Sequence record: NZ_CP046475.1
Direction: 5' to 3' (one strand)
Source of the DNA: a plasmid
DNA length: 54,436 nucleotides
Shown here: one piece after another, positions 2,030-50,024 of the stretch
Position numbering within the stretch: the first letter of the stretch is position 1
Layout of the letters: each line of letters starts with the position of its first letter
The notes under the pieces: model-generated
Databases searched by the model: none
Seen by the model: the letters and a program-made list of their open reading frames with translations, nothing else
What the model was told of the DNA's origin: nothing
Translations under genes and position numbers: made by a program

Positions 2030-2036
2030 GCACCTC

Positions 2037-2414
2037 TTGCCGGGCATCCTCGACGAGATGGGCGCGCTCATGACACCGGATCGAGCCTCCGACCGACCGC
2101 CCGCCCCTGTGGGTCGATGGGAAGACGTCGATCGAGTTGGTGACGACTTCCGCCTGGCTCGTGGAAAGAAGTTGCTAGTCCTCTCAGGTGTTGCCGTACT
2201 CGTCAGCGTTGCGCTCCTCATCGTCGGGGATTCCACGATCCGAGTGTTCGGAGGCGTCGGCCTGGCCTGGAGCCTCTTGGCCTTCGTCCCAGCCGTCTTC
2301 ATCGTCAGTAAGGCACGAAACAGGATCCGCGCGGGGCGGGGTCTGGTGCCCGGCGACCCTTACCGGCCTGACGGTGTGGCCTCAAGTCCTCCCGGTGCGC
2401 AGTCGGACAAGTAG
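2037..2414 (+). CDS. Small membrane protein (2 predicted TM helices, basic tail)
   Basis: TTG start; 125 aa; TM segments LLVLSGVAVLVSVALLIVG and GVGLAWSLLAFVPAVFIV followed by SKARNRIR. Confidence 0.4.
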   Translation: MPGILDEMGALMTPDRASDRPPAPVGRWEDVDRVGDDFRLARGKKLLVLSGVAVLVSVALLIVGDSTIRVFGGVGLAWSLLAFVPAVFIVSKARNRIRAGRGLVPGDPYRPDGVASSPPGAQSDK

Positions 2415-2429
2415 AGGGCCGCCGTCCGT

Positions 2430-2726
2430 CTACTTCGACTCTTCGAGGCTGAGATACCTGTCCGTGCGGAACAGCCCGCCGAGGGTGTCCCCGTTGCTGA
2501 CGGTGAAGGAGCGAACCTCGCCGTCATCGGCGTCGCCCTTGATGAGGTCGGAGCCGGTCCAGTCGATCTTGGCCTGAATGTCGAATTGCCCTGGCGGGAT
2601 CTCGAACTCCACCGTCTCGCCTCGGCTCACCTTCCCGACTTCGCGACCATTGATAAGTATCGAGAACTTCCTGAGGCGGTTTGCCCACCACTCATTGGAA
2701 CGTGTCACTCGAATGATGGCACTCAC
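2430..2726 (-). CDS. Hypothetical small soluble protein (98 aa)
   Basis: Intact ORF 18 bp downstream of the 2745..2945 membrane-protein gene on the same strand; beta-rich composition; no recognisable motif. Confidence 0.45.
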   Translation of the reverse strand: MSAIIRVTRSNEWWANRLRKFSILINGREVGKVSRGETVEFEIPPGQFDIQAKIDWTGSDLIKGDADDGEVRSFTVSNGDTLGGLFRTDRYLSLEESK

Positions 2727-2744
2727 CGCAGCCCCTCCTCACCA

Positions 2745-2945
2745 TCACCGAGGACGTCGAAATCGTTTGAACAACTCCAGGGCAAGGGTGCCAAGCGCGT
2801 AGACGACGACGATGCCGATGGCAATGAACAAAATCCTGCCTAGATCCATGGTCCCAACCCAAGCCCCGAGGAATAGCACGATAGAAACGATGGTTGTCAT
2901 CGCAACGACTTCCTCAAGCCGCCGCGTCCTGTGTCGATCAGGCAC
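2745..2945 (-). CDS. Small 2-TM membrane protein (immunity-like paralog); alternative start at 2900 (MTTIV...)
   Basis: Two hydrophobic helices and a C-terminal KRFRRPR tail, the same architecture as the 1844..2029 and 3248..3418 products. Confidence 0.45.
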   Translation of the reverse strand: MPDRHRTRRLEEVVAMTTIVSIVLFLGAWVGTMDLGRILFIAIGIVVVYALGTLALELFKRFRRPR

Positions 2946-3247
2946 TGCGGTTTCTCCCTTCCCCGAGCCGTTCGAACTCTACTGGCGATGATGTGCCTCA
3001 CGTACCGCGACCCAAGGGGCGCAAGGACTCTCATCGTCAGAGCGCGAACCGAGCTCACGGCCGCGGCCGCTAACTAGCCCGACCGCGCGGTTGCGAACTA
3101 CGCACACACAGCGAATAGGCCTTCATTCCAACTCGGCCAAGCCGCAGTATCTGCGGCCGATATGAAACGGCTCCGCGGCGTCCCGCTAGCAGACGCGGAA
3201 GAGAGTGGTGCGATCCTTGTAAGGGTCAAGCCTATGGTCGGGCTTAA

Positions 3248-3418
3248 TCAGGCACGACGCTTGAGCTTGAGCAGTAGGGCAATTGATGTGACCACCAGGC
3301 CGAATCCTCCCAGGGCCAAGAGTCCGCCTGATGGGGAAGCTAGCGACCCTGAGAATATGGCCGCTGCAACTATAAGGCAGCCAGTAATCAGGCCTATCCA
3401 GTAAGTAGTCTTATCCAC
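3248..3418 (-). CDS. Candidate immunity protein for the Rhs C-terminal toxin (56-aa 2-TM protein; below the ORF-track size cutoff)
   Basis: GTG start 10 bp after the Rhs stop, with a GGAG SD inside the Rhs 3' end. Translation VDKTTYWIGLITGCLIVAAAIFSGSLASPSGGLLALGGFGLVVTSIALLLKLKRRA has an in-frame upstream stop. Paralogous to the 1844..2029 product. Confidence 0.5.
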   Translation of the reverse strand: MDKTTYWIGLITGCLIVAAAIFSGSLASPSGGLLALGGFGLVVTSIALLLKLKRRA

Positions 3419-3428
3419 TTCAACTCCA

Positions 3429-6400
3429 CTAGAACGTGATTATATCGCCATTATCGTCGTAGCAAGACTGGACAATTGACGCTCCAGCGAATGCAAATCC
3501 AGCGAATCCAAATCCTACCGTGAATGGCCCGCCGAATACACTCACACCAAGCCCAAACGTCGCCAGTACGCCGCCGCCAATGGAAATCGCGCACCCGACC
3601 CACGGCTCGCCCATCGCTCCGGTCGGATCTGTTTGGTTCGTGGGGTTGCACCCGACGTAAGCGTAGGGCTGGGTCTCGGCGGGCTGCGCGGGGTTGGTGA
3701 TGCGCTCTGCCGGGTCGGTCTGGGTCCAGCGGTGCATGCCGGGGTCGTAGTACCGCAGGCCGATCTTGTAGTTGCCAGTGGCGGCATTGGTGGTGTCGAG
3801 CCATTCGCCGGTGTAGCGCCAGTTGACCAAGGGGATGTCTGCGGCTGCTTCGGGGTTCTTCCCGCCCTGATAGCCACCGAAGGGGTCGTACCAGTAGTCG
3901 TTAACACGCTCACCCGCGGAGTTGACCACGCCGATGGTCGATCCGAGTCGGTCACTGAGGTAGTAGTAGCGCTTCCCGTCGGGTCCCTTTTGGCCCAGGA
4001 CGCGGCCGTCGGGGGCTAGGACGTAGTCGGTCGTGCCGGAGCTGGTGGTGCTGGAGGTGACGCCGAGGAGGCTGTTGGTGAATGTGATGCCTCCGGCCTT
4101 GGTTCGTTCGACCTGGCTGGTGCCGTCGTATTCCATCGCCCGGGGGTCGTCCTGGTCACGCTGGGTCATGGTGGTGGCGCGGGCGCGCTCGTCGTAGGCG
4201 GCGTTGCCGCCCTGGTTGTCACCGGTCCACATGCCGTTGGCGTCGTAGGTGTTGGTCAGGGTGGTGGCCCCGCCGACGCTGGTGAGCTGGTTTGCGGCGT
4301 TGTAGTTGCCGGTGAAGGAGTCGGTCTGGGTGGGGCTGATCCAGTCGGTCCACGACGTCATGTTGCTGTTCGCGTCGTAGTTGTAGACGTCCTCGGAGCG
4401 CTTGACGCTGTTCTTGGTCGAGGTGCTCTTCTTGATCCGGCCTGAGCTGTCGTAGTCGTAGGTGACGTGGAAGTCGAAGACCGGGTCGTCGATCGTGTAG
4501 ACGTTGTCAGTCGTCTTCCCGCCGGGGCTGGTGTACCCGTAGTTGAGGTCGGTCAGCAGGGTGAAGGTGCCGTTGCTGTTGGCCCGGTCCTGGTAGATGC
4601 GCTCGATGCGGCCGCTCTTGTCGCGGTCTTGGCGGTCGGTCACGCCGCCGGGGTAGGTGATCGAGGCGGTCTTGTGCTGGCCGTAGCTGTAGTTGATGGT
4701 GTTGCCGTCGGGCGGGGTGATGGTCTTGGGGTCGTTCTCGATGTCGTAGGTGTAGCCGGTGGTGCCACGCGGGGTGGTCATCGAGGCCATGTTGCCGGCG
4801 ACGTCGTAGGTGTAGCTGTTCGCGACGCCCGGCAGGTTCTCGGCGGTGACGCGGTTGCGGGCGTCCAGAGCCCATGCAGTGTTCTTCGTGGTGCTGTTGT
4901 GGGTGTCGACGCGGCTTGTGCGGTTGCCGTTGTTGTCGTAGGTGTAGCTCACCGAGCTGGTCGAGGTGGAGGCCCCGGGCTTGGTGTAGGTGATCTTGGT
5001 GACCTCGTCCTTGTCGTTGTAGTCGATGACCTGCTTGTTGCCCTTGCCGTCGAGAACCGTCCGCAGCCGGTTGGTGGCGTCGTAGGTCATGGTGGAGTCA
5101 CCTGCGGGGGCGGGGCGGTCGATCTTGGTGAGGTTGCACCCGGTGTAGCTGTAGGTGGTGGTGTTTCCCTTGCCGTCCTTGCTCGAGGACGGCACGCCGG
5201 GGCAGGCGTCGGAGGCGGACTGGTAGTTGATCGTGGTGGTGGAGTCGCTGGTCTTGACGCTGGTCAGCTGCTCGCGGTTGTTCCAGTCGTAGTCGATTCC
5301 CACGCCGCGGGAGTCGGTGTACTTGCTGGGCTTGTCTGGGGTGTCGGGGTCGAGGTAGTCGAACGTCGACTTCGCGCCGTTGTCCTCGGTGAAGTCCTTG
5401 ACGTTGTAGCCGTCGTAGGTCAGCGTCCCGATGCCGCCTTGGGCGTTGGAGTACTCGTTGACAGCGTTGGTCTGGCTGACAGGAGAGCCGTCGGCGTTCT
5501 CCGGCTTGTCGTCATAGTCGGTGGTCTGAGCGCTGCCGGCGCGGGGGGTGAGGTACTTGGTCTGGCGGCCGCGCTCGTCGAAGGTGTAGGTCCAGGCGTT
5601 GCCGCGCTGGTCGGTAACTGCGACGTGCTGGGTGGTGTTGTCCTGGTCGGGGGTGAAGGTGTACCGGGTGATCGCGGGCTTGGCGGTGGTCGAGTCGGCC
5701 CAGATGATCTTGTTCAGCCGGTCGGTGGTGTCGTACTCGTAGCGAGTGGTGTTGTTCTCGGCGTCGGTGACCGAGGTCAGGTTGTGGTTGGTGTCGTAGG
5801 CGTAGGTCGTGGTCCGGCCGAGCTGGTCGGTGACCGAGGTCAGGTCGTTGCCGGTGTACCCATAGCTGATGAGCCGCCCGCGGGGGTCCGTGATCTTGCT
5901 GATGTACCCGTTGGCGCCCCAGTTGACGGTGGTGGTCTCACCGCGGGTGTCGGTGATCGCGTTGACCCGGCCGCCGGGGCTGTAGCCGTAGGTGATCTTG
6001 TTGCCGTTCTTGTCCTCGACCTCGTCGAGGAAGGTCCCGTCGACGAAGCGGTAGCGCAGGCCTGAGTCGACCATCCGCAGGGTGTACGTCGTCCCGGTCT
6101 TCGACAGCTTCGCGTTCAGGCCGTCGGGCGAGTTCCAGCTGCCCATGCCCTGGCGGTAGGTGAAGAGCTCTTTGCCGCCGGTGGGGGTCTCGAAGGTCGC
6201 GTTGTTCGTGCTGGGGTCGATGACCATGCGCACGCTGTTGCCGATGGTGGAGTTCCAGCCGTAGCCGAAGACGTCGGTGCCGTCGAAACGGGAGTTGTAG
6301 TAGCGGCCCACGGTCATGTTCATGCCCGCGACACCGGAGAGGTTGACGTCGCTGGCCTCCATCAGCAGGTTGCTGGTGGCGACGTTGACCCGCTGGCGCA

Positions 6401-7838
6401 GCCTGTCGGTCAGCTCGTCGTCGTTGAAGGTGAAGTACGGCAGCACACCGAGCTGCTTCTGACGCCACGTCACCTTCAGGTAGGGCTCGTTGACGCCCTC
6501 CTCCATGGTGGTGAAGGTCTTGGCCGAGTCGGTGCTGAACTCATTGGCGGTCAGCGCCAGGCCCCAGTTGGGGTTGGTGTCGGGGTCGTCGATCCAGTCG
6601 CGCATCGCCTGGGTGATCGGGACCGAGACATACCCCGGCGCGCAGCCGGGCCCGCCCTTTGCGGCGCTGGTCTGGCCGATAACCGACCCGAGAGTGGGGT
6701 TGGGCCAGCCGACGCTGGTGGTGTACCAGACGCTCTCGATGCGCTTGGCCTGGATGGTCGTGGGGGTGCAGGAGGCTGAAGACTCGTTGTAGACGTTCAC
6801 CGACGCCGACTCGACCCAGCCACCGGCGAAGGTGTCGACGTTGAACTTCATCAGCGAGCGGAACTTGTTCGACCCGAACAGCCCGGCACGCATGAACGTC
6901 CACCCGGCGTAGTTGTAGGAGGAGTCGCCGGAGTTGATCATCGTGTCGCCGGTGACGTCGAACTGCACCGTCGGGTCGACGACCACGGGGTAGGCCCGGT
7001 CAGGGGCGTTGAGCCAGGCGTCGTCGACGCTGACGCGCAGCGTGGTCTTCCCGGAGAGCTTGACGAGCTCCATGCTCACGTCCTGGGAGACCTCGTCGTT
7101 GGCGTCGGTCATGAAGCCTTGGGGGATGACCGCGGTGACCTCACCCGCGGTGTCGACGAGCTCGACCGACCCGCCAGCCATGCGCGCGGTCAGACCGGTC
7201 AGGTCCATCGGGAAGTCGAACGTGCGCGGCGTGCTCGCCGAGCGCAGGATGATCTCCTCCTTGACCCCTCCCCGGATCGAGTGCAGCTTCAGGTCCACCT
7301 GCGGGCGCAGGCCCGCGAACCGGGCCGTGGTCGCGGTCTGCGACCGAGGCACATCGGTGGCCTTCGACATCGCCCACGACACCCCGCGGCCCTGACCGAA
7401 GTCGAGGTCGACCAGTTGCGGGTCGTCGCTGTCCTTGGCGACGGCGAGGTCGACCGGGGAGTCACCGTTGCGCAGCACTCCGGCGGAGTCGGCGGTCAGA
7501 CGGTTGTCGATCGAGACCCACGTGTCGCCCTCCTGGAAGTTCACCGGGGCCTGGTAGACCCGTGTCTCCATCACACCGGGCTCGTCGGTGGCGAACGTGC
7601 GGGTGTACTCACCGCGCTCGGAGACGATCTCGTCACCCGGCGCCAGAGCCGGGTCGGCGACCGAAACCTTCGGTGTCGTCGGTGTCGCCGGCCGGTCCTG
7701 CTGCTTGGCCTCACCCGCGTACGGGCCGGCCGTCTGATCCACCGGGTCACCCGGCGCTGCAACCGCTCCCCCAGCCCCGGACCCGACCAGCGCCGCCGCT
7801 GAAACAGCAGCAACCGACACCAAAGACACACGTCGCAT
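3429..7838 (-). CDS. Rhs/YD-repeat polymorphic toxin with N-terminal signal peptide and a short glycine-rich hydrophobic C-terminal domain
   Basis: Many YD repeats (YTYDANG, YNYDANSN, YTYDVAGN, YEYDTTDRL...). Core-end motif RYYDPGMHRWTQTDP then ...TDPTGA. Last ~60 aa: GCAISIGGGVLATFGLGVSVFGGPFTVGFGFAGFAFAGASIV. Start chosen at the internal ATG (MRRVSLVSVAAVSAAALVGSG...) with an AGGGG SD; the track's longest ORF starts at 7880. Confidence 0.9.
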   Translation of the reverse strand: MRRVSLVSVAAVSAAALVGSGAGGAVAAPGDPVDQTAGPYAGEAKQQDRPATPTTPKVSVADPALAPGDEIVSERGEYTRTFATDEPGVMETRVYQAPVNFQEGDTWVSIDNRLTADSAGVLRNGDSPVDLAVAKDSDDPQLVDLDFGQGRGVSWAMSKATDVPRSQTATTARFAGLRPQVDLKLHSIRGGVKEEIILRSASTPRTFDFPMDLTGLTARMAGGSVELVDTAGEVTAVIPQGFMTDANDEVSQDVSMELVKLSGKTTLRVSVDDAWLNAPDRAYPVVVDPTVQFDVTGDTMINSGDSSYNYAGWTFMRAGLFGSNKFRSLMKFNVDTFAGGWVESASVNVYNESSASCTPTTIQAKRIESVWYTTSVGWPNPTLGSVIGQTSAAKGGPGCAPGYVSVPITQAMRDWIDDPDTNPNWGLALTANEFSTDSAKTFTTMEEGVNEPYLKVTWRQKQLGVLPYFTFNDDELTDRLRQRVNVATSNLLMEASDVNLSGVAGMNMTVGRYYNSRFDGTDVFGYGWNSTIGNSVRMVIDPSTNNATFETPTGGKELFTYRQGMGSWNSPDGLNAKLSKTGTTYTLRMVDSGLRYRFVDGTFLDEVEDKNGNKITYGYSPGGRVNAITDTRGETTTVNWGANGYISKITDPRGRLISYGYTGNDLTSVTDQLGRTTTYAYDTNHNLTSVTDAENNTTRYEYDTTDRLNKIIWADSTTAKPAITRYTFTPDQDNTTQHVAVTDQRGNAWTYTFDERGRQTKYLTPRAGSAQTTDYDDKPENADGSPVSQTNAVNEYSNAQGGIGTLTYDGYNVKDFTEDNGAKSTFDYLDPDTPDKPSKYTDSRGVGIDYDWNNREQLTSVKTSDSTTTINYQSASDACPGVPSSSKDGKGNTTTYSYTGCNLTKIDRPAPAGDSTMTYDATNRLRTVLDGKGNKQVIDYNDKDEVTKITYTKPGASTSTSSVSYTYDNNGNRTSRVDTHNSTTKNTAWALDARNRVTAENLPGVANSYTYDVAGNMASMTTPRGTTGYTYDIENDPKTITPPDGNTINYSYGQHKTASITYPGGVTDRQDRDKSGRIERIYQDRANSNGTFTLLTDLNYGYTSPGGKTTDNVYTIDDPVFDFHVTYDYDSSGRIKKSTSTKNSVKRSEDVYNYDANSNMTSWTDWISPTQTDSFTGNYNAANQLTSVGGATTLTNTYDANGMWTGDNQGGNAAYDERARATTMTQRDQDDPRAMEYDGTSQVERTKAGGITFTNSLLGVTSSTTSSGTTDYVLAPDGRVLGQKGPDGKRYYYLSDRLGSTIGVVNSAGERVNDYWYDPFGGYQGGKNPEAAADIPLVNWRYTGEWLDTTNAATGNYKIGLRYYDPGMHRWTQTDPAERITNPAQPAETQPYAYVGCNPTNQTDPTGAMGEPWVGCAISIGGGVLATFGLGVSVFGGPFTVGFGFAGFAFAGASIVQSCYDDNGDIITF

Positions 7839-7880
7839 GAAGCACCCCTGCTCTATCGCCCCTGGACGGGACGGACGCAC

Positions 7881-28368: not shown

Positions 28369-28442
28369 CTCTAGACATCATTGACCAACTAGACTAGAGT
28401 GACAGTATCAACACGGCAGACCAAGGGACTTACCACCCCACG
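28369..28442 (+). promoter_or_regulatory. Conserved promoter/operator + 5' leader, copy D (upstream of ardC)
   Basis: CTCTAGACatcaTTGACCAACTAGACTAGAGtgacagtATCAACACGGCAGACCAAGGGACTTACCACCCCACG; ~90% identical to copy E. Confidence 0.5.
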
Positions 28443-28460: not shown

Positions 28461-29411
28461 ATGACCGCGACGAAGCGCACCAGCAAGGCCCGCACCGCCG
28501 AGAGCAAGCGCGAGGAGATGGAGGCTCTGCACCAGCAGCTCGCAGACGGCGTCGAGGCCCTGCGCGGCTCGCAGCAGTGGGCCCGCTACCTGGCGTTCTG
28601 CGCCTCCTTCCACCACTACTCCTTCTCCAACCTCGTCCTGATCTGGATGCAGCGCCCCGAGGCCACCCAGGTCGCCGGGTACCGCGCCTGGCAGGCGAAG
28701 GGGCGACAGGTCCGCAAGGGCGAGCGGGGCGTGCGCATCCTCGGCACCGGCACCGTCAAGGTCAGCGCCCAGGACGACGACGAGGCCAGCACGGGCGACA
28801 ACGCGGCCCAGGACGGCCCGCAGGCGCCCGCGGGCAAGCGTCGGGTCTTCTTCCCCGTCAGCGTCTTCGACATCGCCCAGACCGACGTCATGGAGGGCCA
28901 CGGGGACACCTCGACCGTTACCCACACCCTGGCCGGCGAGGACGTCCACGGCATCCTCGGCCGCGTCGTGGCATACCTGACGGCCACCGGGGTCGTCGTG
29001 GACTTCCAGGAGATCTCCAACGGCGCGAACGGCTACACCAGCCCCGCCGGCCAGGACGGCGAGCCGGTGCGAGTCGTCATCGAGGCACGCAACTCCCCCG
29101 CCCAGCAGGCCAAGACCGCACTGCACGAGGCCGCGCACATTGCGCTGGGCCACCTCGAGGACGGCGTCGAGGAGTACCTGAGCCACCGCGGCCGCTGCGA
29201 GGTCGAGGCCGAGTCTGTGGCCTACGTCCTGGCCGGTCTCCTCGGGCTCGACAGCAGCGCGTACAGCACCGGCTACGTCGCCACCTGGGCAGAGCGCGCC
29301 GACAGCGACGTCGTCAAGAGCACCGCCTCTCGCGTCCTGGCCGCGGTGCACACCCTCTCCCAGGCCCTCGACGGCGAGGACGAGCAGGACGAGCAGCACG
29401 CAGCCGCGTAG
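28461..29411 (+). CDS. ardC: ArdC-like antirestriction protein (ssDNA-binding N-domain + HExxH metalloprotease C-domain)
   Basis: QQWARYLAFCASFHHYSFSNLVLIWMQRPEATQVAGYRAWQAKGRQVRKGERGVRILG fits the ArdC-N/DUF1738 pattern; zincin motif HEAAHIALGH; GGAGG SD. Confidence 0.7.
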   Translation: MTATKRTSKARTAESKREEMEALHQQLADGVEALRGSQQWARYLAFCASFHHYSFSNLVLIWMQRPEATQVAGYRAWQAKGRQVRKGERGVRILGTGTVKVSAQDDDEASTGDNAAQDGPQAPAGKRRVFFPVSVFDIAQTDVMEGHGDTSTVTHTLAGEDVHGILGRVVAYLTATGVVVDFQEISNGANGYTSPAGQDGEPVRVVIEARNSPAQQAKTALHEAAHIALGHLEDGVEEYLSHRGRCEVEAESVAYVLAGLLGLDSSAYSTGYVATWAERADSDVVKSTASRVLAAVHTLSQALDGEDEQDEQHAAA

Positions 29412-29848: not shown

Positions 29849-29921
29849 GCTAGACCGTATTGACCAACTAGACTAGACTGACTTTATCAACACGGCAGAC
29901 CAAGGGACTTACCACCCCACG
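29849..29921 (+). promoter_or_regulatory. Conserved promoter/operator + 5' leader, copy E
   Basis: GCTAGACCGTATTGACCAACTAGACTAGACTGACTTTATCAACACGGCAGACCAAGGGACTTACCACCCCACG. Confidence 0.5.
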
Positions 29922-33266: not shown

Positions 33267-33488
33267 CTACCGAGATAGGTGCCCGTAGGTCGCTCGGATC
33301 GCCTTGATGACGGCTTCATTCCTCGACAAGCGATCGCCTGACTTCGCCGCGTGCTGCACGGCCATCTCGACGAGGTTGTAGACGTCGGGAGGGAATCTGT
33401 ACGAGACCGCGTGAGCCGGGGCCGCCACGGGCGGCAACCGACGGTCCAGGTTGTTGCTATCCACGGCACGTCCTCTCAGTTCAAGCAA
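33267..33488 (-). CDS. Ribbon-helix-helix (CopG/antitoxin-like) DNA-binding protein
   Basis: YRFPPDVYNLVEMAVQHAAKSGDRLSRNEAVIKAIRATYG fits the RHH pattern; 73 aa, may start further downstream. Confidence 0.45.
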   Translation of the reverse strand: MLELRGRAVDSNNLDRRLPPVAAPAHAVSYRFPPDVYNLVEMAVQHAAKSGDRLSRNEAVIKAIRATYGHLSR

Positions 33489-33750
33489 TCAGTGCAAGCC
33501 ATCCTTGCGCCCAATCGGCGGCGTCGCACTCCCAAGGTCGCGTCAGCCCTGCTCACTGACGATCAGTTTCGAGCGATTGCGGAAACCTACAAGGTCGCGC
33601 GCTGTTGCATAGCGGCGCGGATCGCGCCTACCCTTGAAACGTGCATTTGTACTTCCTGTGACGGCTGAGTAAGGCCTACCGCGCTCGTTGAGTCATCCGA
33701 GCCTGCGGCGGCCGCTCGTTCTCGACCCTCCACGGGTCGCCGTCATCTTG

Positions 33751-33784
33751 CGCACCTTCGCACGCTTCTTAGCCGTGCGGTGCG
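33751..33784 (+). promoter_or_regulatory. Leader hairpin 18 nt upstream of the ABC-F start (attenuator candidate)
   Basis: CGCACC-ttc-GCACG-cttcttagc-CGTGC-GGTGCG followed by SD GAAGGA; short uORF candidate MHLYFL at ~33646..33666. Confidence 0.4.
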
Positions 33785-33802
33785 TCGTTCCGAAGGATAC
33801 GA

Positions 33803-35458
33803 ATGCTCTCCCTCAACACCCCTCGACCCGCGCGTCAGCGCGCGCAGCTCATCGCGTCCGACGTCTCTGTGATGCGCGGAGCCACCCCCGTCCTCAACCA
33901 CGTTGACCTCACGATCACGGCCACCTCGCGCGTAGCGATCGTCGGCGAGAACGGCCGGGGTAAGTCGACGCTCCTGCACGTCCTCACCGGCACTCTCACC
34001 CCGGACAGCGGAGTAGTGCAGCGACTCGGGACGCTCGGCATAGCCGAACAGGAAATGCCGAGCGGCGACGATAGAACCGTGGGCCAGGCGGTCGCGGAAG
34101 CGATCGCGCAGCCGCTGGCCGCCCTGGCGTCCCTCGATGCGGCCGCGGCGTCACTCTCGGCGGGCGTCACCGGAGCTGAGGAGCGATATGCCGCCGCTCT
34201 GGAGCACGCCGAAGTCCTAGATGCGTGGGACGCCGAACGGCGGGTGCAGATCGCGCTGGAAGCGCTCGACGCCGAAACCGATCCCGCCCGCCGACTGCAC
34301 GACCTCTCCGTCGGGCAGCGGTACCGCGTGCGCTTGGCGTGCCTGCTCGGCGCCGATGACGATTTCCTGTTGCTCGACGAGCCGACGAACCATCTCGATA
34401 GGAGCGGCCTCGAGTTCCTGACCGCGCAACTGCGGTCGCGAAACGGCGGCGTGATCGTCGTCACCCACGATCGCGCGCTGCTATCCGACGTCGCGGAGAC
34501 GATCGTCGACCTCGACCCAACCCCCGACGATCAGGTGCGCGTGTACGGCAACGGCTACGCCGGCTACCGGGAAGGCCGGCGCGCAGAGCGCGAACGGTGG
34601 GAGCAAGAATACGAGCGACAGCAGACCGAGCTCGCACGACTGCAGGACAGTCTCAGCTCAGCGCAGAATCGTCTCGTCTCGGGCTGGCGCCCAGAGAAGG
34701 GAACCAACAAGCACGGACGGGCGACGCGCGCGGGCGGGCTCGTGCAAAGCGTGCACCGCCGGCAGGAACAACTCGAAGCGCACGCGGTGACCGTCCCCGA
34801 GCCGCCGCAAGTGTTCCGCTTCCCAGACCTCGCGACCCGAACCGGAGCGGTGCTACTGAGTGTGGATCAGGTGACCGTGGCCGACAGGCTCACGCGCCCG
34901 GTGACGCTCTCGCTGGCGCACCGGGGGCGTCTGGTCGTGACCGGACCCAATGGGGCCGGGAAGTCCACTCTGTTGAGCGTTGCAGCGGGTGATCTGCACG
35001 CGGACACGGGCAGCGTTCGTCGTCCATCGAATGTCCGGCTTGCGTTCCTCCGCCAGGAGACCGCGCTGCCGCCGGATCGTCGCGCAAGCGCGGTCTACGC
35101 GGCCCACGTCGACACACTCGTGGCGGCCGGCACCGTCCACCCAAGCGAGGCCGTCGGGCTCTCGCAGCTCGGGCTCCTTCGCGCCCGCGAATCGAGCAAG
35201 CGGATAGGTGAGCTGTCGATGGGCCAGCAACGGCGCCTCGACCTGGCCCTGGTGCTCGCCACCAAGCCTCACGTGCTCCTGCTCGACGAACCGACCAACC
35301 ACCTATCGATCGCGCTCGTCGACGAACTGACCGACGCGCTCAACGCCACCCAAGCGGCTGTGATCGTATCCACCCACGACAGGCAGCTTCTTCGCGACGT
35401 CGACGGCTGGCCCTCGTTGCGACTGGCAGCACCGACCGAGAGCGAGGCGCTGGTATGA
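33803..35458 (+). CDS. ABC-F family double-ATPase (ARE/ribosomal-protection-type antibiotic resistance candidate)
   Basis: Two ABC cassettes without a TM domain: GENGRGKSTLLHVL, LSVGQRYRVRLA, LLLDEPTNHLD; GPNGAGKSTLL, LSMGQQRRLDLA, LLLDEPTNHLS; 551 aa. Confidence 0.85.
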   Translation: MLSLNTPRPARQRAQLIASDVSVMRGATPVLNHVDLTITATSRVAIVGENGRGKSTLLHVLTGTLTPDSGVVQRLGTLGIAEQEMPSGDDRTVGQAVAEAIAQPLAALASLDAAAASLSAGVTGAEERYAAALEHAEVLDAWDAERRVQIALEALDAETDPARRLHDLSVGQRYRVRLACLLGADDDFLLLDEPTNHLDRSGLEFLTAQLRSRNGGVIVVTHDRALLSDVAETIVDLDPTPDDQVRVYGNGYAGYREGRRAERERWEQEYERQQTELARLQDSLSSAQNRLVSGWRPEKGTNKHGRATRAGGLVQSVHRRQEQLEAHAVTVPEPPQVFRFPDLATRTGAVLLSVDQVTVADRLTRPVTLSLAHRGRLVVTGPNGAGKSTLLSVAAGDLHADTGSVRRPSNVRLAFLRQETALPPDRRASAVYAAHVDTLVAAGTVHPSEAVGLSQLGLLRARESSKRIGELSMGQQRRLDLALVLATKPHVLLLDEPTNHLSIALVDELTDALNATQAAVIVSTHDRQLLRDVDGWPSLRLAAPTESEALV

Positions 35459-36720
35459 ACCGCGAGACTCCCGACCGGCTGCGGGCGCTGCGCCCTCTTG
35501 CCACCCGCGACTATCGGCTGCTGTTCGCGGCGGTTGGTATCGAGGTCTTCGGCACCGGCATGTGGACCATCGTCATGGTGTTCCAGGTGCTCGCCCTCGA
35601 CGACAGTCCCCTTGCTCTTTCGGCCGTGGCTACCGGGCTCAGCCTCGGTCTCTTCGCTTTCTCGGTCCTCGGCGGGGTGGTAGCCGACCGCTTCTCCAAA
35701 CGACGGATCATCATCACCGTGCAGGGATGCACCGCGGCGGTCATGACCACCGTCGCTGTGCTGTCCCTCACAGGCGCAATCGAGCTGTGGCATGTCGGGC
35801 TCGCCTCGTTCGCGATGGGCGCGGGTAGCGCGTTCTTCTACCCCGCCTACAGCGCCTACCTCCCGCAAGTACTCCCACCCGAGCAACTACTCGCCGCGAA
35901 CGGGCTCGAAGGGGCTCTCAGGCCATCAATGGGCCAGGGCCTCGGCCCCGCCCTCGGAGGGATTGTCGTCGGGGCCTTCTTCCCCGCCGTTGGCGCGGTC
36001 ATCGTCGCCGCCTCCTACGCGGTCGCGTTCGTCATCACCCTGTTCCTCAGCCGCCGCGAGGACGCACCCGCTCCGGCGACGTCGGAAGAACGCACGAGCG
36101 TGTGGGGGGATCTCCGAGCTGGGGTCCGCTACGTCGCTCGCACCCGGTGGCTGCTGTGGACGCTGATCTTCGGATCATCGCTCGCGCTCATCATCCAGGG
36201 GCCAATCGAGGTGCTGCTGCCGTTCCTCACCCGCGACCGCTTCGACAACGCCGAAGCGACGTTCGGACTCTTGCTCGCCGCCTACGGAATCGGCGGCGCA
36301 ATCGGCTCGCTCATCGTGTCGTCTCTCAAACTGCCCCGGCGCTATCTCACGCTCATGATCGGCCTCTGGGGCGGCGGAACCCTCCCGCTCGTGCTGATCG
36401 GCCTCGTCAACGACCTGGCGGTGATGCTCATCACACTGTTCGCCGTTGGCGCGGCCACGGGAGCTGGTGTAGTCATCTGGGGCACGCTGCTTCAACGACT
36501 CGTGCCACCGGAGATGATTGGGCGCGTCGCCAGTCTCGACTTCTTCGTCTCGATCACCTTCATGCCCGTTTCGATCGCGATCGCCGGGCCGCTGTCGCTC
36601 GTCGTACCGATACCAGCCATCTTCATCGTGGCGGGCGTCGCGCCGACGCTGCTCGCTGTCGTCGCGCTTGTCGCAGGACGCATGCGGCATGTCGAAACGA
36701 GACAACCACTGGACACGTGA
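35455..36720 (+). CDS. MFS transporter (efflux, EntS/macrolide-exporter-like)
   Basis: ATGA overlap with the ABC-F gene; 12 predicted TM helices; 421 aa. Confidence 0.85.
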   Translation: MNRETPDRLRALRPLATRDYRLLFAAVGIEVFGTGMWTIVMVFQVLALDDSPLALSAVATGLSLGLFAFSVLGGVVADRFSKRRIIITVQGCTAAVMTTVAVLSLTGAIELWHVGLASFAMGAGSAFFYPAYSAYLPQVLPPEQLLAANGLEGALRPSMGQGLGPALGGIVVGAFFPAVGAVIVAASYAVAFVITLFLSRREDAPAPATSEERTSVWGDLRAGVRYVARTRWLLWTLIFGSSLALIIQGPIEVLLPFLTRDRFDNAEATFGLLLAAYGIGGAIGSLIVSSLKLPRRYLTLMIGLWGGGTLPLVLIGLVNDLAVMLITLFAVGAATGAGVVIWGTLLQRLVPPEMIGRVASLDFFVSITFMPVSIAIAGPLSLVVPIPAIFIVAGVAPTLLAVVALVAGRMRHVETRQPLDT

Positions 36721-36727
36721 GCGCGTG

Positions 36728-36790
36728 CCGAAACTCCGTTCCGAAACCACGGTGTGCCGAAAGGGGTTTTGATTCGGGGCGGAGTTTCGG
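36728..36790 (+). terminator. 11-bp inverted repeat CCGAAACTCCG...CGGAGTTTCGG directly after the MFS stop
   Basis: CCGAAAC x3 followed by TTTCGG x2-3; long structured element. Confidence 0.4.
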
Positions 36791-37494
36791 GGTGCGTCTC
36801 CGCCAACCCGCTCGACCGTGCCGCAAACGATGGGTTTCGGGCAGCGACACGTGATGCGCGGGGGCCTGGCGCAACATCGCTTCCCTCCAGCGCGACTTGC
36901 GGCGCCGCCAGGACGACCCGGATGACCCCGGCGGACCCGGCGTCTGAGCTAAGTCGGCAGGCGCTACGTGAGAATTAGGCGCGGCGGGGTCGGTGGGTTG
37001 CCGCTCGGGCAGGGGCGACCTGCGGTGCGATCCCCGGCGGGCGTCCCACACGCTAGCGATGAGGGTGAGTCGCTCGCAGGCAATAGTCGACGGGGTGAAG
37101 GCGAAATGCACAGCCTGATGCCGACGATGCGCCTTGCCTCCGAACCTGCTGTTCCATTGGCCGCTGCTCACTGACGATCGTTTTCGAACAGCCCGGGGGA
37201 GGGGCCGCAGGGGGCTCTGAGAGGCGTTCGAAACCCCTGCTCACTGATGGCTTCGCTCGAAACGTAAAAAGTGGCGACTTTCGAGCAGGGGTGGTCGACA
37301 TGGTCAGCGCCGTGGCGTGGACGAGCATCACCCTCTGGGACCTGTTCGGGGAGTTGTTCCTCTGGGCGCTGGCCGTGCTGGTCGTCGGCTTCGCGGCGTC
37401 GCCCACGGCGTCGAGGGCCACGTCGGGTCGACCGGGCGAACGGGGGTGCGGTGTCGGGCCAGGTCACGGCCCGACGCTAGCTGTGCAGCTGGGG

Positions 37495-46733: not shown

Positions 46734-47540
46734 TCAGGTGTAGATCGCGAGGTAGTCGACGATGAGGAGGGGCCCCTCGAGGAACAGCTCCTTATCGGCA
46801 TCGTTCGCAGGCCCCTCCCGTTCCTGGCGACGCCGCTCCGCGCGGGAGTTGACGTTCATACCTGGCAGTGACAGGAGCGGGTAGAAGCTACCCGCTGGGA
46901 TGGTCCTCTTGACCTTGGCGACGATCCTCGCGTAGCCATCGAACGACGCGCCCGGGGCGATCCACTGGTTGTTGAGTGAACCGACGATCTTCCAGTCGCT
47001 CCCATTCATGTCTTCACTGACCACTACCAACGCCACGTCGACGTTCTCGAGAAAACCGGCGACCGCGCTCATCTCTGCCGCGTCGGGCAGCCCCTCCATG
47101 TCGAGACCCAACGCTCGCGCCTGCGGCATGAGCGTCTCCATCGTCTTCAGCGCCTCCTTGAACTCGCCTTGGTTGGCGACCGGGGCGATGCTCTCTGGCA
47201 CGTAGACCTCGCACTCCCAGTCGATGAGGGTTCCTGTGCCGGTGCTGGGGAACTCGGTGTCAGGCTCGAGGACCTCACGCCACTCGTGCTCTTCGGGCTT
47301 AGCGCGGCCTGCAGCGATGAGCCGCTGCAGGCGTGAAGCGTCGTGATCATCGACGTTGAGGGTGGACTCGTCCTCGGAGTCCGAGCGCGCCTCTAGCCGC
47401 GCGCCCGGGAACCCCGCGGCCCCTCCGAACCCGTGCCCCCCCTTCGATCGAGCGGAGCCGGATCGTCGTAGTCCCCCTTCCGCACTGGCGATGTAGCTCG
47501 CCAGTGCGTCGCCGTCGAGGTACAGGGCGTTGATCAGCAT
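46734..47540 (-). CDS. Hypothetical protein, third gene of the sigma/anti-sigma operon
   Basis: 268-aa ORF 25 bp downstream of the anti-sigma gene; no recognised motif. Confidence 0.45.
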   Translation of the reverse strand: MLINALYLDGDALASYIASAEGGLRRSGSARSKGGHGFGGAAGFPGARLEARSDSEDESTLNVDDHDASRLQRLIAAGRAKPEEHEWREVLEPDTEFPSTGTGTLIDWECEVYVPESIAPVANQGEFKEALKTMETLMPQARALGLDMEGLPDAAEMSAVAGFLENVDVALVVVSEDMNGSDWKIVGSLNNQWIAPGASFDGYARIVAKVKRTIPAGSFYPLLSLPGMNVNSRAERRRQEREGPANDADKELFLEGPLLIVDYLAIYT

Positions 47541-49094: not shown

Positions 49095-50024
49095 ATGCCC
49101 TTCCACACCACCGCCGTCCAGGTGATGCTCGCCTCTCCCGGGGACACCTCTAAGCAGCGTGCAGAGATCCTGACCGCAGTTGCGCGGTGGAACGGCCGCC
49201 ATGCGCAGTTGCGCGGGTTCGTCATCACTCCTTGGCTCTACGAACTGCACGCCACGCCGTTGTACGGCCAGCGTGCACAAACCATCGTCAACGAGCAGGG
49301 CGTCGACAAGTCCGACGTCGTCATCGTCATCTTCGGCGACAAGCTGGGCACACCGACCGGGGTCGATCTCTCGGGCACGGTCGAGGAGATGAGGCGCGCG
49401 CACGAGCTGGGCAAGCGTGTGCACGTCTACTTCTCATCCGCTGACGTGCCCCAGGACAAGATCACTGACGCCGTCGCACTCAGCGAGTTCAAGGCCAAGT
49501 TCGAAGAAGCCCAGCTCGGCTACTACGAGACCTACACCGACCCCAGGGACCTCTCGTTGAAGGTGATCGAGGCACTCGAGACCGACCTGACTGTCTTCGG
49601 GGAGGCCCCTGCGCCCAAGACCCCTGCTGGGGTCGTCCTCCGGGTCACCTTCGAGGCGAGAACACCGCCCGAGCAGCAGCCCGCCCTCATTCCGTCGACC
49701 TACAGCACCGAAACCTCAAGGTCGCTGCATCAAATGGCTGCCAGAAGAGCTGCCGAGCCCGTCAGGCAGCTGCTGATCAGCAATACCGGCGAAGTTGACG
49801 CCGAGAAGGTGCAAGTCAAGCTCGTTCCTCCACCCGGTGTCTCCGTATCGGTGAGGCACACCGACGACGACGGGTGGACTTCTCCGCGCGATCTCACAGT
49901 CGACTCAGTGTTCGCCCTGGAGTTGGTCCGCAGGCGAACTAGGCCAACGAACGTCGACGTGATGACGCGGTGGGTCGAGGCAGACAAGATGCAGGAGAAG
50001 ACTTTCACCACCCACGTGTACTGA
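49095..50024 (+). CDS. DUF4062-like N-terminal domain protein (possible defence-associated)
   Basis: VMLASPGDTSKQRAEI...DVVIVIFGDKLGTPTGVDLSGTVEEMRRAHELGKRVHVYF fits the DUF4062 pattern (..FG.RYG...S.TE.E...A...g.pv.vF). Confidence 0.45.
   Translation: MPFHTTAVQVMLASPGDTSKQRAEILTAVARWNGRHAQLRGFVITPWLYELHATPLYGQRAQTIVNEQGVDKSDVVIVIFGDKLGTPTGVDLSGTVEEMRRAHELGKRVHVYFSSADVPQDKITDAVALSEFKAKFEEAQLGYYETYTDPRDLSLKVIEALETDLTVFGEAPAPKTPAGVVLRVTFEARTPPEQQPALIPSTYSTETSRSLHQMAARRAAEPVRQLLISNTGEVDAEKVQVKLVPPPGVSVSVRHTDDDGWTSPRDLTVDSVFALELVRRRTRPTNVDVMTRWVEADKMQEKTFTTHVY

What the first reader, a model, noticed from the sequence alone, without database searches (positions are those of the whole stretch)
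33540..37290. ABC-F + MFS resistance-like cassette with an attenuator-like leader, bracketed by CTGCTCACTGA repeats
A 551-aa ABC-F protein (two ATP-binding cassettes, no TM domain) is translationally coupled to a 12-TM MFS exporter. This is the pairing seen in antibiotic-producer/self-resistance and acquired macrolide-lincosamide-streptogramin resistance loci. Its 5' leader carries a strong interrupted hairpin (33751..33784) ending 7 nt before the SD GAAGGA, plus a possible 6-aa uORF (MHLYFL, ~33646). This is consistent with ribosome-mediated attenuation, as known for ARE ABC-F genes. The motif CTGCTCACTGA(C/T)G(A/G)TC...TTTCGA occurs once upstream (33549) and twice downstream (37163, 37232) in direct orientation, so the cassette may have been captured as a unit.
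Basis: partly seen in the sequence, partly recalled or inferred. Interest (0 to 1): 0.6.

Follow-up and report, generated by a model that had tools for sequence, protein, structure and literature searches.

The report
Inducible ABC-F plus efflux resistance operon
A conjugative actinobacterial plasmid carries a mobile two-gene module, a ribosome-protection-type ABC-F ATPase coupled to a TetV-like efflux pump, behind a conserved leader whose six-codon mini-gene (MHLYFL) most likely acts as an antibiotic sensor; the family is uncharacterised but widespread.

Summary
A 551-aa ABC-F (33803-35458; two ABC domains, no TM segment) overlaps by ATGA a 421-aa MFS (35455-36720).

By profile score the ABC-F sits nearest the actinomycete macrolide-protection group (TlrC/CarA/OleB/SrmB). 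It scores well above EttA/Uup/YbiT/YheS but below every curated cutoff. Its linker is about 20 aa longer than EttA's. The MFS is TetV-like (DHA3), also below cutoff.

The 162-nt leader is more conserved than the coding sequence in 15 of 15 comparisons. In 26 distinct homologues a TANNNT -10 box ends 6-7 nt before a uORF, so the uORF is probably leaderless. It encodes M-H-L-[Y/F/L]-[F/Y]-L-stop and shows ATG/GTG switching and synonymous changes.

Its rare codons CAU and UUG pair with the ABC-F start codon, and UCCU pairs with the Shine-Dalgarno. I infer translational attenuation: a drug-stalled ribosome on the uORF unmasks the ABC-F start.

Closest analogues are mef(A)/msr(D) with its MYLIFM leader, and mycobacterial leaderless-sORF attenuators.

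The CTGCTCACTGA repeats are real, but the module runs from 33559 to about 36792-36850. Drug specificity and resistance are untested.

The parts
33605..33610 (+). -35-like hexamer TTGCAT, 18 nt upstream of the -10
   Evidence: Read from the sequence. TTGC(N)(N) is found at 16-18 nt spacing in 12 of the 26 homologous leaders; the others have only a -10.
33629..33634 (+). -10 hexamer TACCCT (TANNNT)
   Evidence: All 26 distinct leaders have a TANNNT hexamer ending 6-7 nt before the uORF start codon. The consensus promoter scan found nothing, which is expected for this non-E. coli-type promoter.
33641..33661 (+). Leaderless uORF GTG CAT TTG TAC TTC CTG TGA encoding MHLYFL; proposed drug-sensing leader peptide and anti-SD/anti-AUG strand (P0 5' arm, 33643-33657)
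   Evidence: Conserved as M-H-L-[Y/F/L]-[F/Y]-L-stop in 26 of 26 leaders. The start codon is ATG in 15 and GTG in 11. Synonymous changes occur at codons 3-6. CAT is used in 26 of 26 and TTG in 24 of 26, although both codons are rare in window genes.
33659..33665 (+). P1 5' arm (UGACGGC, includes the uORF stop codon); pairs with 33739-33745
   Evidence: 97% of cells are paired, with G-U changes only.
33666..33719 (+). P2 long hairpin (UGAGU/GGCC/CCGC/GCUCG arms)
   Evidence: 20 pairs, 97% paired, 2 pairs with compensatory changes. Part of it was the search pattern for the metagenome loci, so its invariance in those loci is partly imposed.
33724..33738 (+). P3 short hairpin GACCC...GGGUC with a variable loop
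   Evidence: One compensatory C-G to U-A change in L097; loop length and sequence vary.
33739..33745 (+). P1 3' arm GCCGUCA
33750..33785 (+).
   Evidence: 7 basal pairs, 98.9% paired, 2 with compensatory changes. Folds on its own at -20.5 kcal/mol, z -2.45. No U-tract follows it.
33792..33807 (+). SD GAAGGA (33792-33797), 5-nt spacer, and the ABC-F AUG region; P0 3' arm (33794-33807)
   Evidence: Pairs with the uORF in the minimum-free-energy fold and in the consensus fold. In all 26 leaders the probability that the AUG is unpaired is about 0.01.
33803..35458 (+). ABC-F ATPase, 551 aa, ARE-like
35455..36720 (+). MFS (DHA3/MFS_3, TetV-like) exporter, 421 aa, ATGA overlap with the ABC-F stop codon
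36719..36800 (+). Strong hairpin starting at the MFS stop codon; probable operon-end terminator or stabiliser (inferred)
   Evidence: -44.5 kcal/mol, z -4.7. Inverted repeat I14. Conserved in L222 and L223.
33549..33592 (+). Site S1: CTGCTCACTG|ACGATCAGTTTCGAGCGATTGCGGAAACCTACAA; left boundary of the module at 33559
   Evidence: Homology with L222 and with the 34-mer of pSGAir0570_2 (L221) starts exactly at 33559.
36817..36850 (+). Site S2: GCCGCAA|ACGATGGGTTTCGGGCAGCGACACG; right boundary region of the module
   Evidence: Exact match to the motif. Homology with L223 ends at 36850 and with L222 at 36792.
37164..37189 (+). Site S3: CTGCTCACTG|ACGATCGTTTTCGAAC
37237..37249 (+). Site S4: CTGCTCACTGATG (left half only)

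Best explanation
The region 33559 to about 36800 is a mobile, antibiotic-inducible resistance-type operon on a conjugative actinobacterial plasmid. It has two genes. One is an ARE-like ABC-F, a soluble ribosome-binding ATPase nearest the TlrC/CarA/OleB/SrmB group. The other is a TetV-like DHA3 MFS exporter, translated by coupling through the ATGA overlap.

Expression is probably controlled by a 162-nt leader that works by ribosome-dependent translational attenuation.

1. Transcription starts at the first base of a leaderless six-codon uORF (MHLYFL-stop). This step is inferred.
2. Without drug, the pioneer ribosome finishes the uORF and leaves. The uORF RNA then pairs with the ABC-F start region: GCAUUUG with CGAAUGC, and UCCU with AGGA of the SD. 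The stop-codon region pairs with GCCGUCA (P1). Hairpins P2-P4 act as a scaffold. This folds into a very stable off state.
3. With a ribosome arrested on the uORF by a drug bound in the tunnel or at the PTC, P0 and P1 cannot form. The SD and AUG stay open, and ABC-F plus MFS are made. By analogy with the hexapeptide MsrDL, the arrest may occur at termination with the UGA in the A site.

Shown here: the gene content, the conservation of the uORF and helices, the predicted pairing, and the mobility. Inferred: the transcription start, the stalling, the inducing drug (macrolide is the leading guess) and the resistance phenotype.
For: Protein identity:
- The best NCBIfam profiles are ABCF_producer (333 bits) and ribo_prot_ABC_F (325 bits). 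EttA scores 225, Uup 219, the YbiT-like model 174 and the YheS-like model 170.
- The linker needs about 21 gap positions in Mtb EttA but aligns almost without gaps to the VmlR ARD.
- The ABC-F has no TM segment.
- The MFS scores 495 bits against Tet(V) and 231 bits against the DHA3 model TIGR00900. It gives weaker hits to Mef(B) and Mef(A).

Mobility and resistance context:
- An 88.8%-identical block lies in Gordonia and Microbacterium plasmids, next to a tyrosine recombinase. In a CSF isolate it lies next to cmx and an IS481 element.
- One 546-aa variant is indexed with identical sequence in 1148 blocks of the collection.
- A 93%-identical copy lies on another mobilisable plasmid next to cadD.

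Leader:
- Nucleotide identity of the leader exceeds that of the CDS in 15 of 15 pairs, for example 97% against 88% and 84% against 71%.
- 26 of 26 leaders have a TANNNT box 6-7 nt before the uORF. The hexapeptide is kept through ATG/GTG switching and synonymous changes.
- The consensus fold has 47 pairs with 97.9% of cells paired, against 36-46% when the partners are slid. Five pairs carry compensatory changes, a value reached by 2 of 500 shuffles.
- The window leader folds at -78 kcal/mol with z -4.9.
- The AUG is unpaired with probability about 0.01 in all 26 free leaders. This rises to a mean of 0.44 when the uORF plus 12 nt are blocked.
- Replacing the two rare codons by the host-preferred synonyms (CAU to CAC, UUG to CUG) raises AUG accessibility to 0.43. 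These codons make up 9 of 105 His codons and 28 of 595 Leu codons in window genes.

Precedents:
- MsrDL (MYLIFM) arrests at termination with erythromycin. It controls msr(D) in the mef(A)/msr(D) operon (PMC10314930).
- In M. smegmatis a leaderless sORF pairs with the downstream SD, and a stalled ribosome opens the pairing (bioRxiv 10.1101/834739).
Against: - No experiment has been done. The transcription start, uORF translation, stalling, inducer and resistance are all inferred.
- The P0 pairs are almost invariant. They therefore carry no covariation evidence, and part of the complementarity (AUGC with GCAU) follows from two adjacent start regions.
- The blocked-state folds leave the SD or AUG only partly open, and for some homologues the AUG unpaired probability stays at 0.01-0.1.
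- The ABC-F is below the curated cutoffs of every ARE model, and the MFS is below the Tet(V) and DHA3 cutoffs.
- Twenty of the 26 leaders were retrieved with a pattern inside P2, which inflates the conservation of P2.
- Several chromosomal homologues (Labedella, Agreia, one Microbacterium) have the ABC-F and leader without the MFS. The pump is therefore an optional partner.
Confidence: 0.7

Rival explanations
1. Control is transcriptional. P4 (33750-33785) is a U-tract-less intrinsic terminator, and a stalled ribosome on the uORF favours an antiterminator. This is how msrD, vgaA, vmlR, lmo0919, lmrC and cplR are controlled.
For: Most characterised ARE ABC-F leaders use transcription attenuation (PMC12421871; PMC10201436; PMC10314930). 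P4 is a conserved hairpin with compensatory changes that lies just upstream of the SD.
Against: No U-run follows P4; the sequence after it is GUCGUUCCGAAGGA. The terminator scan found nothing there. I could not find a conserved alternative pairing that would disrupt P4. P4 persists in folds where the uORF is blocked. The uORF pairs directly with the SD and AUG in all 26 homologues.
Confidence: 0.2
2. The ABC-F is a housekeeping or stress translation factor rather than a drug-resistance protein. On this view the uORF senses general translation stress or amino-acid supply, and the MFS exports something unrelated.
For: The ABC-F is below all ARE cutoffs. By sequence its best solved relative is Mtb EttA. 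It is chromosomal in many Microbacteriaceae, sometimes without the MFS. The whiB7-type uORFs of actinobacteria also respond to amino-acid starvation (abstract of PMC10274678, listed).
Against: ARE profiles outrank EttA, Uup, YbiT and YheS by about 100 bits or more. The linker is ARD-length. The gene is repeatedly captured on plasmids, next to other resistance genes and IS elements, and one variant is identical across more than a thousand indexed blocks. That pattern is typical of selected accessory genes. The uORF has no run of a single regulatory codon.
Confidence: 0.1
3. The leader is a structured RNA (a riboswitch or a protein-binding element), and the six-codon frame is incidental and not translated.
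For: The leader folds very stably (z -4.9), and P2 is almost invariant in sequence.
Against: - The start codon alternates ATG/GTG and is never lost.
- The stop codon is invariant and the frame length is fixed at 6 codons.
- Changes at codons 3-6 are synonymous or conservative (Y/F/L).
- The -10 box keeps an exact 6-7 nt distance.
- No Rfam family matches.
Confidence: 0.05
4. One reading: the whole segment between the CTGCTCACTGACGATC copies (33549 to 37164) is one integrated element, with the 16-nt core duplicated as attL and attR.
For: A 16-nt identical core, 24 nt at 92%, lies in direct orientation 3615 bp apart.
Against: Two independent plasmids break homology after CTG, at 33559, not at the start of the core. 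The module shared with L222 and L223 ends at 36792-36850 beside a third ACGAT-N3-TTTCGGGC copy, about 320-370 bp before 37164. None of the roughly 35 ORFs scanned against Pfam matched a recombinase family.
Confidence: 0.15

Closest known systems
mef(A)/msr(D) (MEGA) macrolide-resistance operon with the MsrDL leader peptide (PMC10314930)
   Same: - A DHA3-type MFS exporter and an ARE-type ABC-F lie in one operon on mobile elements.
- A hydrophobic hexapeptide leader ends directly at a stop codon: MYLIFM there, MHLYFL here, sharing M1, L3 and F5.
- In MsrDL position 2 is dispensable and L3 and I4 are essential. Here L3 is invariant, and position 4 is always Y, F or L.
- A ribosome stalled on the leader switches the downstream gene on.
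   Different: - Gene order is reversed (ABC-F then MFS), and the two genes overlap.
- The hosts are Actinomycetota, not Firmicutes or Proteobacteria.
- The uORF appears leaderless instead of being driven by an SD.
- There is no Rho-independent terminator; the uORF RNA itself masks the SD and AUG.
- The ABC-F is nearer ARE4 than Msr (333 against 188 bits). The MFS is TetV-like rather than Mef-like (495 against 55-67 bits).
- Stalling and drug specificity were not tested here.
Mycobacterial leaderless short-ORF translational attenuators (Ms5788A polycysteine sORF; bioRxiv 10.1101/834739)
   Same: A leaderless sORF opens the transcript. The sORF codons pair with the SD region of the next gene in an unusually stable duplex. 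A stalled ribosome prevents the pairing. Regulation is at translation, and downstream genes follow.
   Different: The signal there is Cys-tRNA supply, sensed by a polycysteine tract in a 30-codon sORF. Here the sORF is a 6-codon hydrophobic peptide in front of a resistance-type operon, so the expected signal is a ribosome-targeting drug.
ARE4 ABC-F proteins of macrolide producers (TlrC, CarA, OleB, SrmB; NCBIfam NF000171) and the related AAF1/ARE5 groups (PMC6723617)
   Same: This is the best-scoring profile family, aligned over residues 14-532. The proteins are actinobacterial and have two NBDs and a long linker. Microbacteriaceae genomes are recorded as carrying ARE4, ARE5, AAF1, AAF2, AAF4 and AAF6 members.
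   Different: The score of 333 bits is far below the 800-bit cutoff. The gene is not in a biosynthetic cluster. Its subfamily placement (ARE4, AAF or ARE5) was not resolved here.
Tet(V) of Mycobacterium smegmatis (NCBIfam NF012178) / DHA3 family
   Same: The alignment is full length (residues 12-419 against profile positions 2-409) at 495 bits. Both are 12-TM-type MFS_3 proteins.
   Different: The score is below the 640-bit cutoff. The substrate is unknown. Here the pump is coupled to an ABC-F.
ermC-type translational attenuation
   Same: A drug-stalled ribosome on a leader peptide frees a masked SD and AUG.
   Different: ermC uses four segments, and its SD-driven leader does not itself pair with the SD of the resistance gene. 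Here there are two states, and the uORF is the masking strand. This comparison rests on established knowledge and was not tested here.

Membership tests
ABC-F (soluble twin-ABC ATPases) | Two ABC_tran domains joined by a linker, with no transmembrane domain | tested here: met
   Pfam ABC_tran matches in 2 stretches, E 1e-44. No hydrophobic segment is found.
ARE (antibiotic-resistance) ABC-F | Scores above the curated cutoff of an ARE family model | tested here: not met
   ABCF_producer 333 against 800; ribo_prot_ABC_F 325 against 380; CarA 253 against 1050; Msr 188 against 680; Sal 178 against 725; Lsa 161 against 750; Vga 149 against 725.
ARE (antibiotic-resistance) ABC-F | Closer to ARE models than to the housekeeping EttA, Uup, YbiT and YheS models | tested here: met
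   ARE models score 333 and 325 bits. EttA scores 225, Uup 219, PRK15064 174 and PRK10636 170. No tree with reference sequences was built.
ARE (antibiotic-resistance) ABC-F | Extended interdomain linker (ARD) compared with EttA | tested here: met
   The linker is about 21 residues longer than in Mtb EttA. It aligns nearly without gaps to the VmlR linker.
ARE (antibiotic-resistance) ABC-F | Confers resistance by displacing a ribosome-bound drug | not testable with these tools
   Needs MIC and biochemical assays.
ARE (antibiotic-resistance) ABC-F | uORF-containing regulatory leader (frequent in the family, not universal) | tested here: met
   The uORF is conserved in 26 of 26 leaders.
Housekeeping ABC-F (EttA / Uup / YbiT / YheS) | Reaches the equivalog cutoff | tested here: not met
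   EttA 225 against 599; Uup 219 against 900; PRK15064 174 against 762; PRK10636 170 against 917.
Tet(V) tetracycline efflux MFS | Reaches the NF012178 cutoff | tested here: not met
   495 bits against 640, aligned over the full length.
MFS_3 / DHA3 12-spanner exporters | Pfam MFS_3 above gathering score; about 12 TM segments | tested here: met
   PF05977 scores 113.6 against 27. Hydrophobic windows merge into roughly 11-12 segments. The DHA3 model TIGR00900 scores 231, below its 319.6 cutoff.
mef/msr-type operon | An MFS exporter and an ABC-F co-transcribed | tested here: met
   ATGA overlap. The same overlap is found in Agromyces, in a Micrococcales chromosome and in plasmid variants.
mef/msr-type operon | Order mef then msr, with a Rho-independent terminator after the leader | tested here: not met
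   The order here is ABC-F then MFS. No U-tract terminator is present in the leader.
MsrDL-like arrest peptide | [quoted passage not shown] | not testable with these tools
   Only a resemblance is available: both are hexapeptides and share M1, L3 and F5.
Leaderless sORF translational attenuator | -10 box at the distance that places the transcription start on the start codon | tested here: met
   TANNNT ends 6-7 nt upstream in 26 of 26 leaders. The transcription start was not mapped.
Leaderless sORF translational attenuator | sORF RNA pairs with the SD and AUG of the downstream gene | tested here: met
   Shown in silico only. The pairs are invariant, so they carry no covariation.
Rfam cis-regulatory families | Match to any covariance model | tested here: not met
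   Only three chance-level hits with E of about 7, none of them in the leader.
Site-specific cassette or integrated element | Direct repeats at both ends that coincide with homology breakpoints | tested here: inconclusive
   The left breakpoint at 33559 falls exactly within S1 in two independent comparisons. The right breakpoints at 36792 and 36850 lie near S2.
Site-specific cassette or integrated element | Cognate recombinase adjacent | tested here: not met
   None of the window ORFs scanned matched an integrase, resolvase or transposase family. L222 has a resolvase and L001-L004 have a tyrosine recombinase nearby.

The most novel reading that the evidence does not exclude
MHLYFL may be an actinobacterial counterpart of MsrDL: a leaderless hexapeptide that arrests the ribosome at termination only when a specific tunnel- or PTC-binding drug is present. 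On this reading the module it controls is an uncatalogued resistance determinant. That module is already spreading between Micrococcales and Mycobacteriales plasmids, including a clinical Microbacterium isolate. In addition, the ACGAT-N3-TTTCGRRC sites at the module ends would mark a cargo-exchange (site-specific recombination) system of actinobacterial plasmids that has not been described.
Probability: 0.3. Interest if true: 0.7.

Novelty: new variant of a known kind. Interest (0 to 1): 0.55.

Why it matters
If the operon confers resistance, it is a mobile determinant that current profile-based AMR naming misses. RefSeq calls the two proteins only 'ABC-F family ATP-binding cassette domain-containing protein' and 'MFS transporter'. 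Yet one variant is present with identical protein sequence in more than a thousand indexed blocks of the collection and on plasmids of two actinobacterial orders.

The leader would also be a compact model for drug sensing: six codons, no 5' UTR, and direct masking of the next start codon. It links two lines of work that have so far been separate. One is antibiotic-arrest peptides such as MsrDL. The other is leaderless sORF attenuators of actinobacteria. It could be tested with a handful of reporter constructs.

Tried and rejected
- The genome-contig scan with an ABC-F alignment was wasted. The back-translated pattern LLDEPTNH is generic, and the 80 loci returned were ABC-Fs at 25-55% identity. 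I recovered close relatives through the look-up of encoding contigs and a leader-pattern scan of metagenomes instead.
- About two thirds of the metagenome pattern hits were chance matches inside unrelated genes. I filtered them out by requiring the uORF.
- The Rfam search of the leader found nothing.
- The sigma-70 consensus scan found no promoter.
- I considered a WhiB7-type promoter (AT-rich tract upstream of the -35) by eye and did not see one.
- I considered SD sequestration by CCUUCG inside P4. I dropped it because that complementarity is not conserved in Labedella or Gordonia.
- PDB sequence hits do not discriminate ARE from EttA, because no ARE4, ARE5 or AAF structure is available.
- Searches of PLSDB for the boundary site and for the 36721-37300 spacer found only the single pSGAir0570_2 34-mer.
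- More distant actinobacterial ABC-F loci (44% identity or less) lack this leader.
- 'MHLYFL' is absent from the searchable literature.

Full report
**What is there**

The window has 67.8% G+C. It carries a ParA gene (ORF; Pfam families listed). It also carries genes for ArdC, MobC, a TraG/TraD-type coupling protein, a DUF87/HerA-type (VirB4-like) ATPase, an M23/SLT cell-wall hydrolase and an RHS-repeat protein. It is therefore a conjugative or mobilisable actinobacterial plasmid. The exact ABC-F protein is also encoded on NCBI assembly GCA_014875995.1, in the same gene neighbourhood.

Inside the plasmid, a 551-aa ORF (33803-35458) overlaps a 421-aa ORF (35455-36720) by ATGA. The first protein has two ABC_tran domains and no hydrophobic segment. 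The second is an MFS_3/MFS_1 protein whose hydrophobic windows merge into roughly 11-12 segments.

**What the proteins are**

Against NCBIfam, the ABC-F scores best with the TlrC/CarA/OleB/SrmB 'producer' model (333 bits) and with the general ribosomal-protection ABC-F model (325 bits). It scores lower with the housekeeping models: EttA 225, Uup 219, YbiT-like 174, YheS-like 170. It is below the curated cutoff of every model.

In a residue-level alignment, its interdomain linker needs about 21 gap positions in M. tuberculosis EttA. The same linker aligns almost without gaps to the extended linker of VmlR. By sequence alone, the solved structures do not separate the two possibilities.

I therefore call it ARE-like, nearest ARE4. 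Its subfamily is unresolved. Murina et al. list ARE4, ARE5, AAF1, AAF2, AAF4 and AAF6 in Microbacteriaceae genomes.

The MFS aligns over its full length to the Tet(V) model at 495 bits, below the 640-bit cutoff. It also aligns to the DHA3 model TIGR00900 and gives weaker Mef(A)/Mef(B) hits.

**Distribution and mobility**

Homologues of the ABC-F at 80-98% identity are numerous. They include chromosomal copies in Microbacterium, Labedella, Herbiconiux, Agreia, Agromyces, Plantibacter and others.

- In Labedella, Agreia and one Microbacterium the ABC-F stands alone.
- In Agromyces and a Micrococcales chromosome it overlaps an MFS_3 gene, as it does here.
- A block covering 33629-36720 is 88.8% identical in four Gordonia and Microbacterium plasmids. 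There it lies beside a hypothetical gene, an HTH regulator and a tyrosine recombinase. In M. paraoxydans from cerebrospinal fluid it also lies beside a Cmx/CmrA exporter and an IS481 element.
- That 546-aa variant is indexed with identical sequence in 1148 blocks of the collection.
- A 93%-identical copy lies on another plasmid fragment carrying a relaxase, MobC, a resolvase and cadD.
- The cassette's GC3 (0.81) is lower than that of the backbone genes (0.88-0.95).

Together these point to an accessory gene pair that has been captured repeatedly from Microbacteriaceae chromosomes.

**The leader**

I aligned 26 distinct leaders. Six come from protein-based look-ups. Twenty come from a metagenome scan with the pattern GCGCTCGTTGAG-N3-4-TCCGAG, so those 18 positions are fixed by construction.

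*Conservation.* Leader identity to the window exceeds ABC-F coding identity in all 15 pairs tested. This includes the six loci that were not selected by the pattern, for example 0.969 against 0.880 and 0.840 against 0.762.

*Promoter and uORF.* Every leader has a TANNNT hexamer ending 6-7 nt before the uORF start codon. This is the spacing expected if transcription begins on that codon. The uORF is always six sense codons plus TGA. Its codons across the 26 leaders are as follows:

| Codon | Variants (count) |
|---|---|
| 1 (start) | ATG (15), GTG (11) |
| 2 | CAT (26) |
| 3 | TTG (24), TTA (1), CTG (1) |
| 4 | TAC (19), TAT (3), TTT (3), TTG (1) |
| 5 | TTC (24), TTT (1), TAC (1) |
| 6 | CTG (19), CTC (4), TTG (2), CTT (1) |

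This is the signature of selection on a peptide, M-H-L-[Y/F/L]-[F/Y]-L. The string MHLYFL does not occur in the searchable literature, and no Rfam family matches the leader.

*RNA structure.* The window leader folds at -78 kcal/mol, z -4.9. The consensus fold of the 26 sequences has six helices:

| Helix | Pairing |
|---|---|
| P0 (two segments) | uORF 33643-33657 with the SD/AUG region 33794-33807 |
| P1 | stop-codon region 33659-33665 with 33739-33745 |
| P2 | hairpin 33666-33719 |
| P3 | hairpin 33724-33738 |

Overall, 97.9% of cells are paired, against 36-46% when the partners are slid. Five pairs in P2, P3 and P4 carry compensatory changes, a value reached by 2 of 500 shuffles. P0 and P1 vary only through G-U changes, so they have no covariation support.

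*Codon usage supports P0.* P0 is built from the His codon CAU and the Leu codon UUG. These make up only 9 of 105 His codons and 28 of 595 Leu codons in window genes, yet they are kept in 26 of 26 and 24 of 26 leaders.

*Fold predictions.* In partition-function folds, the ABC-F AUG is unpaired with probability about 0.01 in all 26 leaders. This rises to a mean of 0.44 when the uORF plus 12 nt are made unavailable, as under a ribosome. It rises to 0.43 when only CAU and UUG are replaced by the preferred synonyms CAC and CUG. P4 is not followed by a U-tract, and the terminator scan finds nothing there.

**Mechanism**

The following is inference. The uORF is translated as the 5' end emerges from RNA polymerase.

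- Without drug, the ribosome terminates and leaves. The uORF RNA then closes onto the SD and AUG (P0) and onto GCCGUCA (P1), with P2-P4 as a scaffold. The operon stays silent.
- A ribosome arrested on the uORF keeps P0 and P1 open. ABC-F is then translated, and the MFS follows through the ATGA overlap.

Two experimentally established systems make this plausible.

1. In M. smegmatis a leaderless sORF pairs with the SD of the next gene in an unusually stable duplex. A stalled ribosome relieves the block, and regulation is translational.
2. In the mef(A)/msr(D) operon the hexapeptide MsrDL (MYLIFM) arrests the ribosome at its stop codon when erythromycin is bound. There Y2 is dispensable and L3 and I4 are essential. 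MHLYFL shares its length, M1, L3 and F5, and has a hydrophobic residue at position 4.

This resemblance, together with the ARE4-like profile, makes a macrolide the leading candidate inducer. It is only a lead. PTC-binding drugs that stall ribosomes near the start of an ORF would also keep the uORF occupied.

**Rivals**

- Terminator-type attenuation through P4 cannot be excluded, and it could coexist with the translational mechanism.
- A non-resistance role for the ABC-F is less likely, given the profile ranking, the linker length and the mobile contexts.
- An untranslated structured RNA is unlikely, given the codon-level substitution pattern.

**The repeats**

CTGCTCACTGAYG occurs exactly at 33549, 37164 and 37237. 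The overlapping motif ACGATNNNTTTCGRRC occurs exactly at 33559, 36827 and 37174, and nowhere else in the window.

Homology with L222 starts exactly at 33559. So does the only other PLSDB match, a 34-mer in plasmid pSGAir0570_2, where it sits upstream of an unrelated winged-HTH plus cation-transporter pair. Position 33559 lies between CTGCTCACTG and ACGATC. On the right, homology with L222 ends at 36792, just after a strong hairpin. That hairpin begins at the MFS stop codon (36719-36800; -44.5 kcal/mol). Homology with L223 ends at 36850, just after the 36827 site. The left flank in L222 (CCCGCAA|ACGAT) resembles the left half of the 36827 site (GCCGCAA|ACGAT).

The repeats are therefore real and mark module boundaries. 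However, the module is about 33559-36800/36850, not 33549-37164 or 33549-37237. None of the window ORFs I scanned matched a recombinase family, and PLSDB has no further copies of the site. The mechanism behind these sites remains unexplained.

**Verdict**

This is an uncharacterised but widespread member of the family of inducible ABC-F plus efflux resistance operons. Its leader combines a MsrDL-like hexapeptide with the leaderless-sORF masking architecture of actinobacteria. The role assigned to the hairpin and the proposed cassette boundaries need correction. Resistance, inducer and stalling remain to be shown.

Noticed in passing
window 33549-33592, 36817-36850, 37164-37189, 37237-37249; L221:3001-3034; L222:5759-5792: Direct copies of a site (left half CTGCTCACTG or CCGCAA, then ACGAT-N3-TTTCGRRC) sit at homology breakpoints between unrelated plasmids. 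The 34-mer ACGATCAGTTTCGAGCGATTGCGGAAACCTACAA is identical in pSGAir0570_2, where it lies in front of a different cargo (winged-HTH regulator plus cation transporter). It may be a recombination or transposition site, but no enzyme could be assigned.
   Followed up: partly
window 36719-36800: A very stable hairpin (-44.5 kcal/mol, z -4.7) begins at the MFS stop codon. It is conserved in L222 and L223 and has no U-tract. It is probably the operon-end terminator or stabiliser.
   Followed up: partly
window 28406-28442 and 29885-29921: An exact 37-nt direct repeat flanks the ArdC-like anti-restriction gene (28461-29411).
   Followed up: no
L016, about 128 nt upstream of position 4001: An Actinomadura oligospora ABC-F (37% identical) has a leaderless-looking short uORF, MGSLIFL-stop, behind a TANNNT box. 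This is another hydrophobic mini-leader reminiscent of MsrDL.
   Followed up: no
L128:5064-5293: A metagenome contig carries a degenerate copy of the leader (uORF MHLFFS-stop, P2 intact) that is not followed by the ABC-F start. It may be a decayed or rearranged locus.
   Followed up: no
L002:1429-3608; L091 and L092 (about 1250-3430): In M. paraoxydans 70447 (from cerebrospinal fluid) and in related contigs, the 546-aa cassette variant lies directly beside a Cmx/CmrA chloramphenicol exporter and an IS481-family transposase. This looks like a small multiresistance region.
   Followed up: partly
window 33267-33488 (- strand): A 73-aa ORF diverges from the operon. It looks ribbon-helix-helix-like by eye but has no Pfam hit. 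Site S1 lies in the intergenic region it shares with the ABC-F promoter.
   Followed up: partly
window 3429-7880 (- strand); 46734-47540 (- strand); 49095-50024 (+ strand): The plasmid also encodes a 1483-aa RHS-repeat protein and two proteins of unknown function. One matches DUF6414; the other gives a DUF4062 hit just below the Pfam gathering score (22.7 against 24.7 bits).
   Followed up: no
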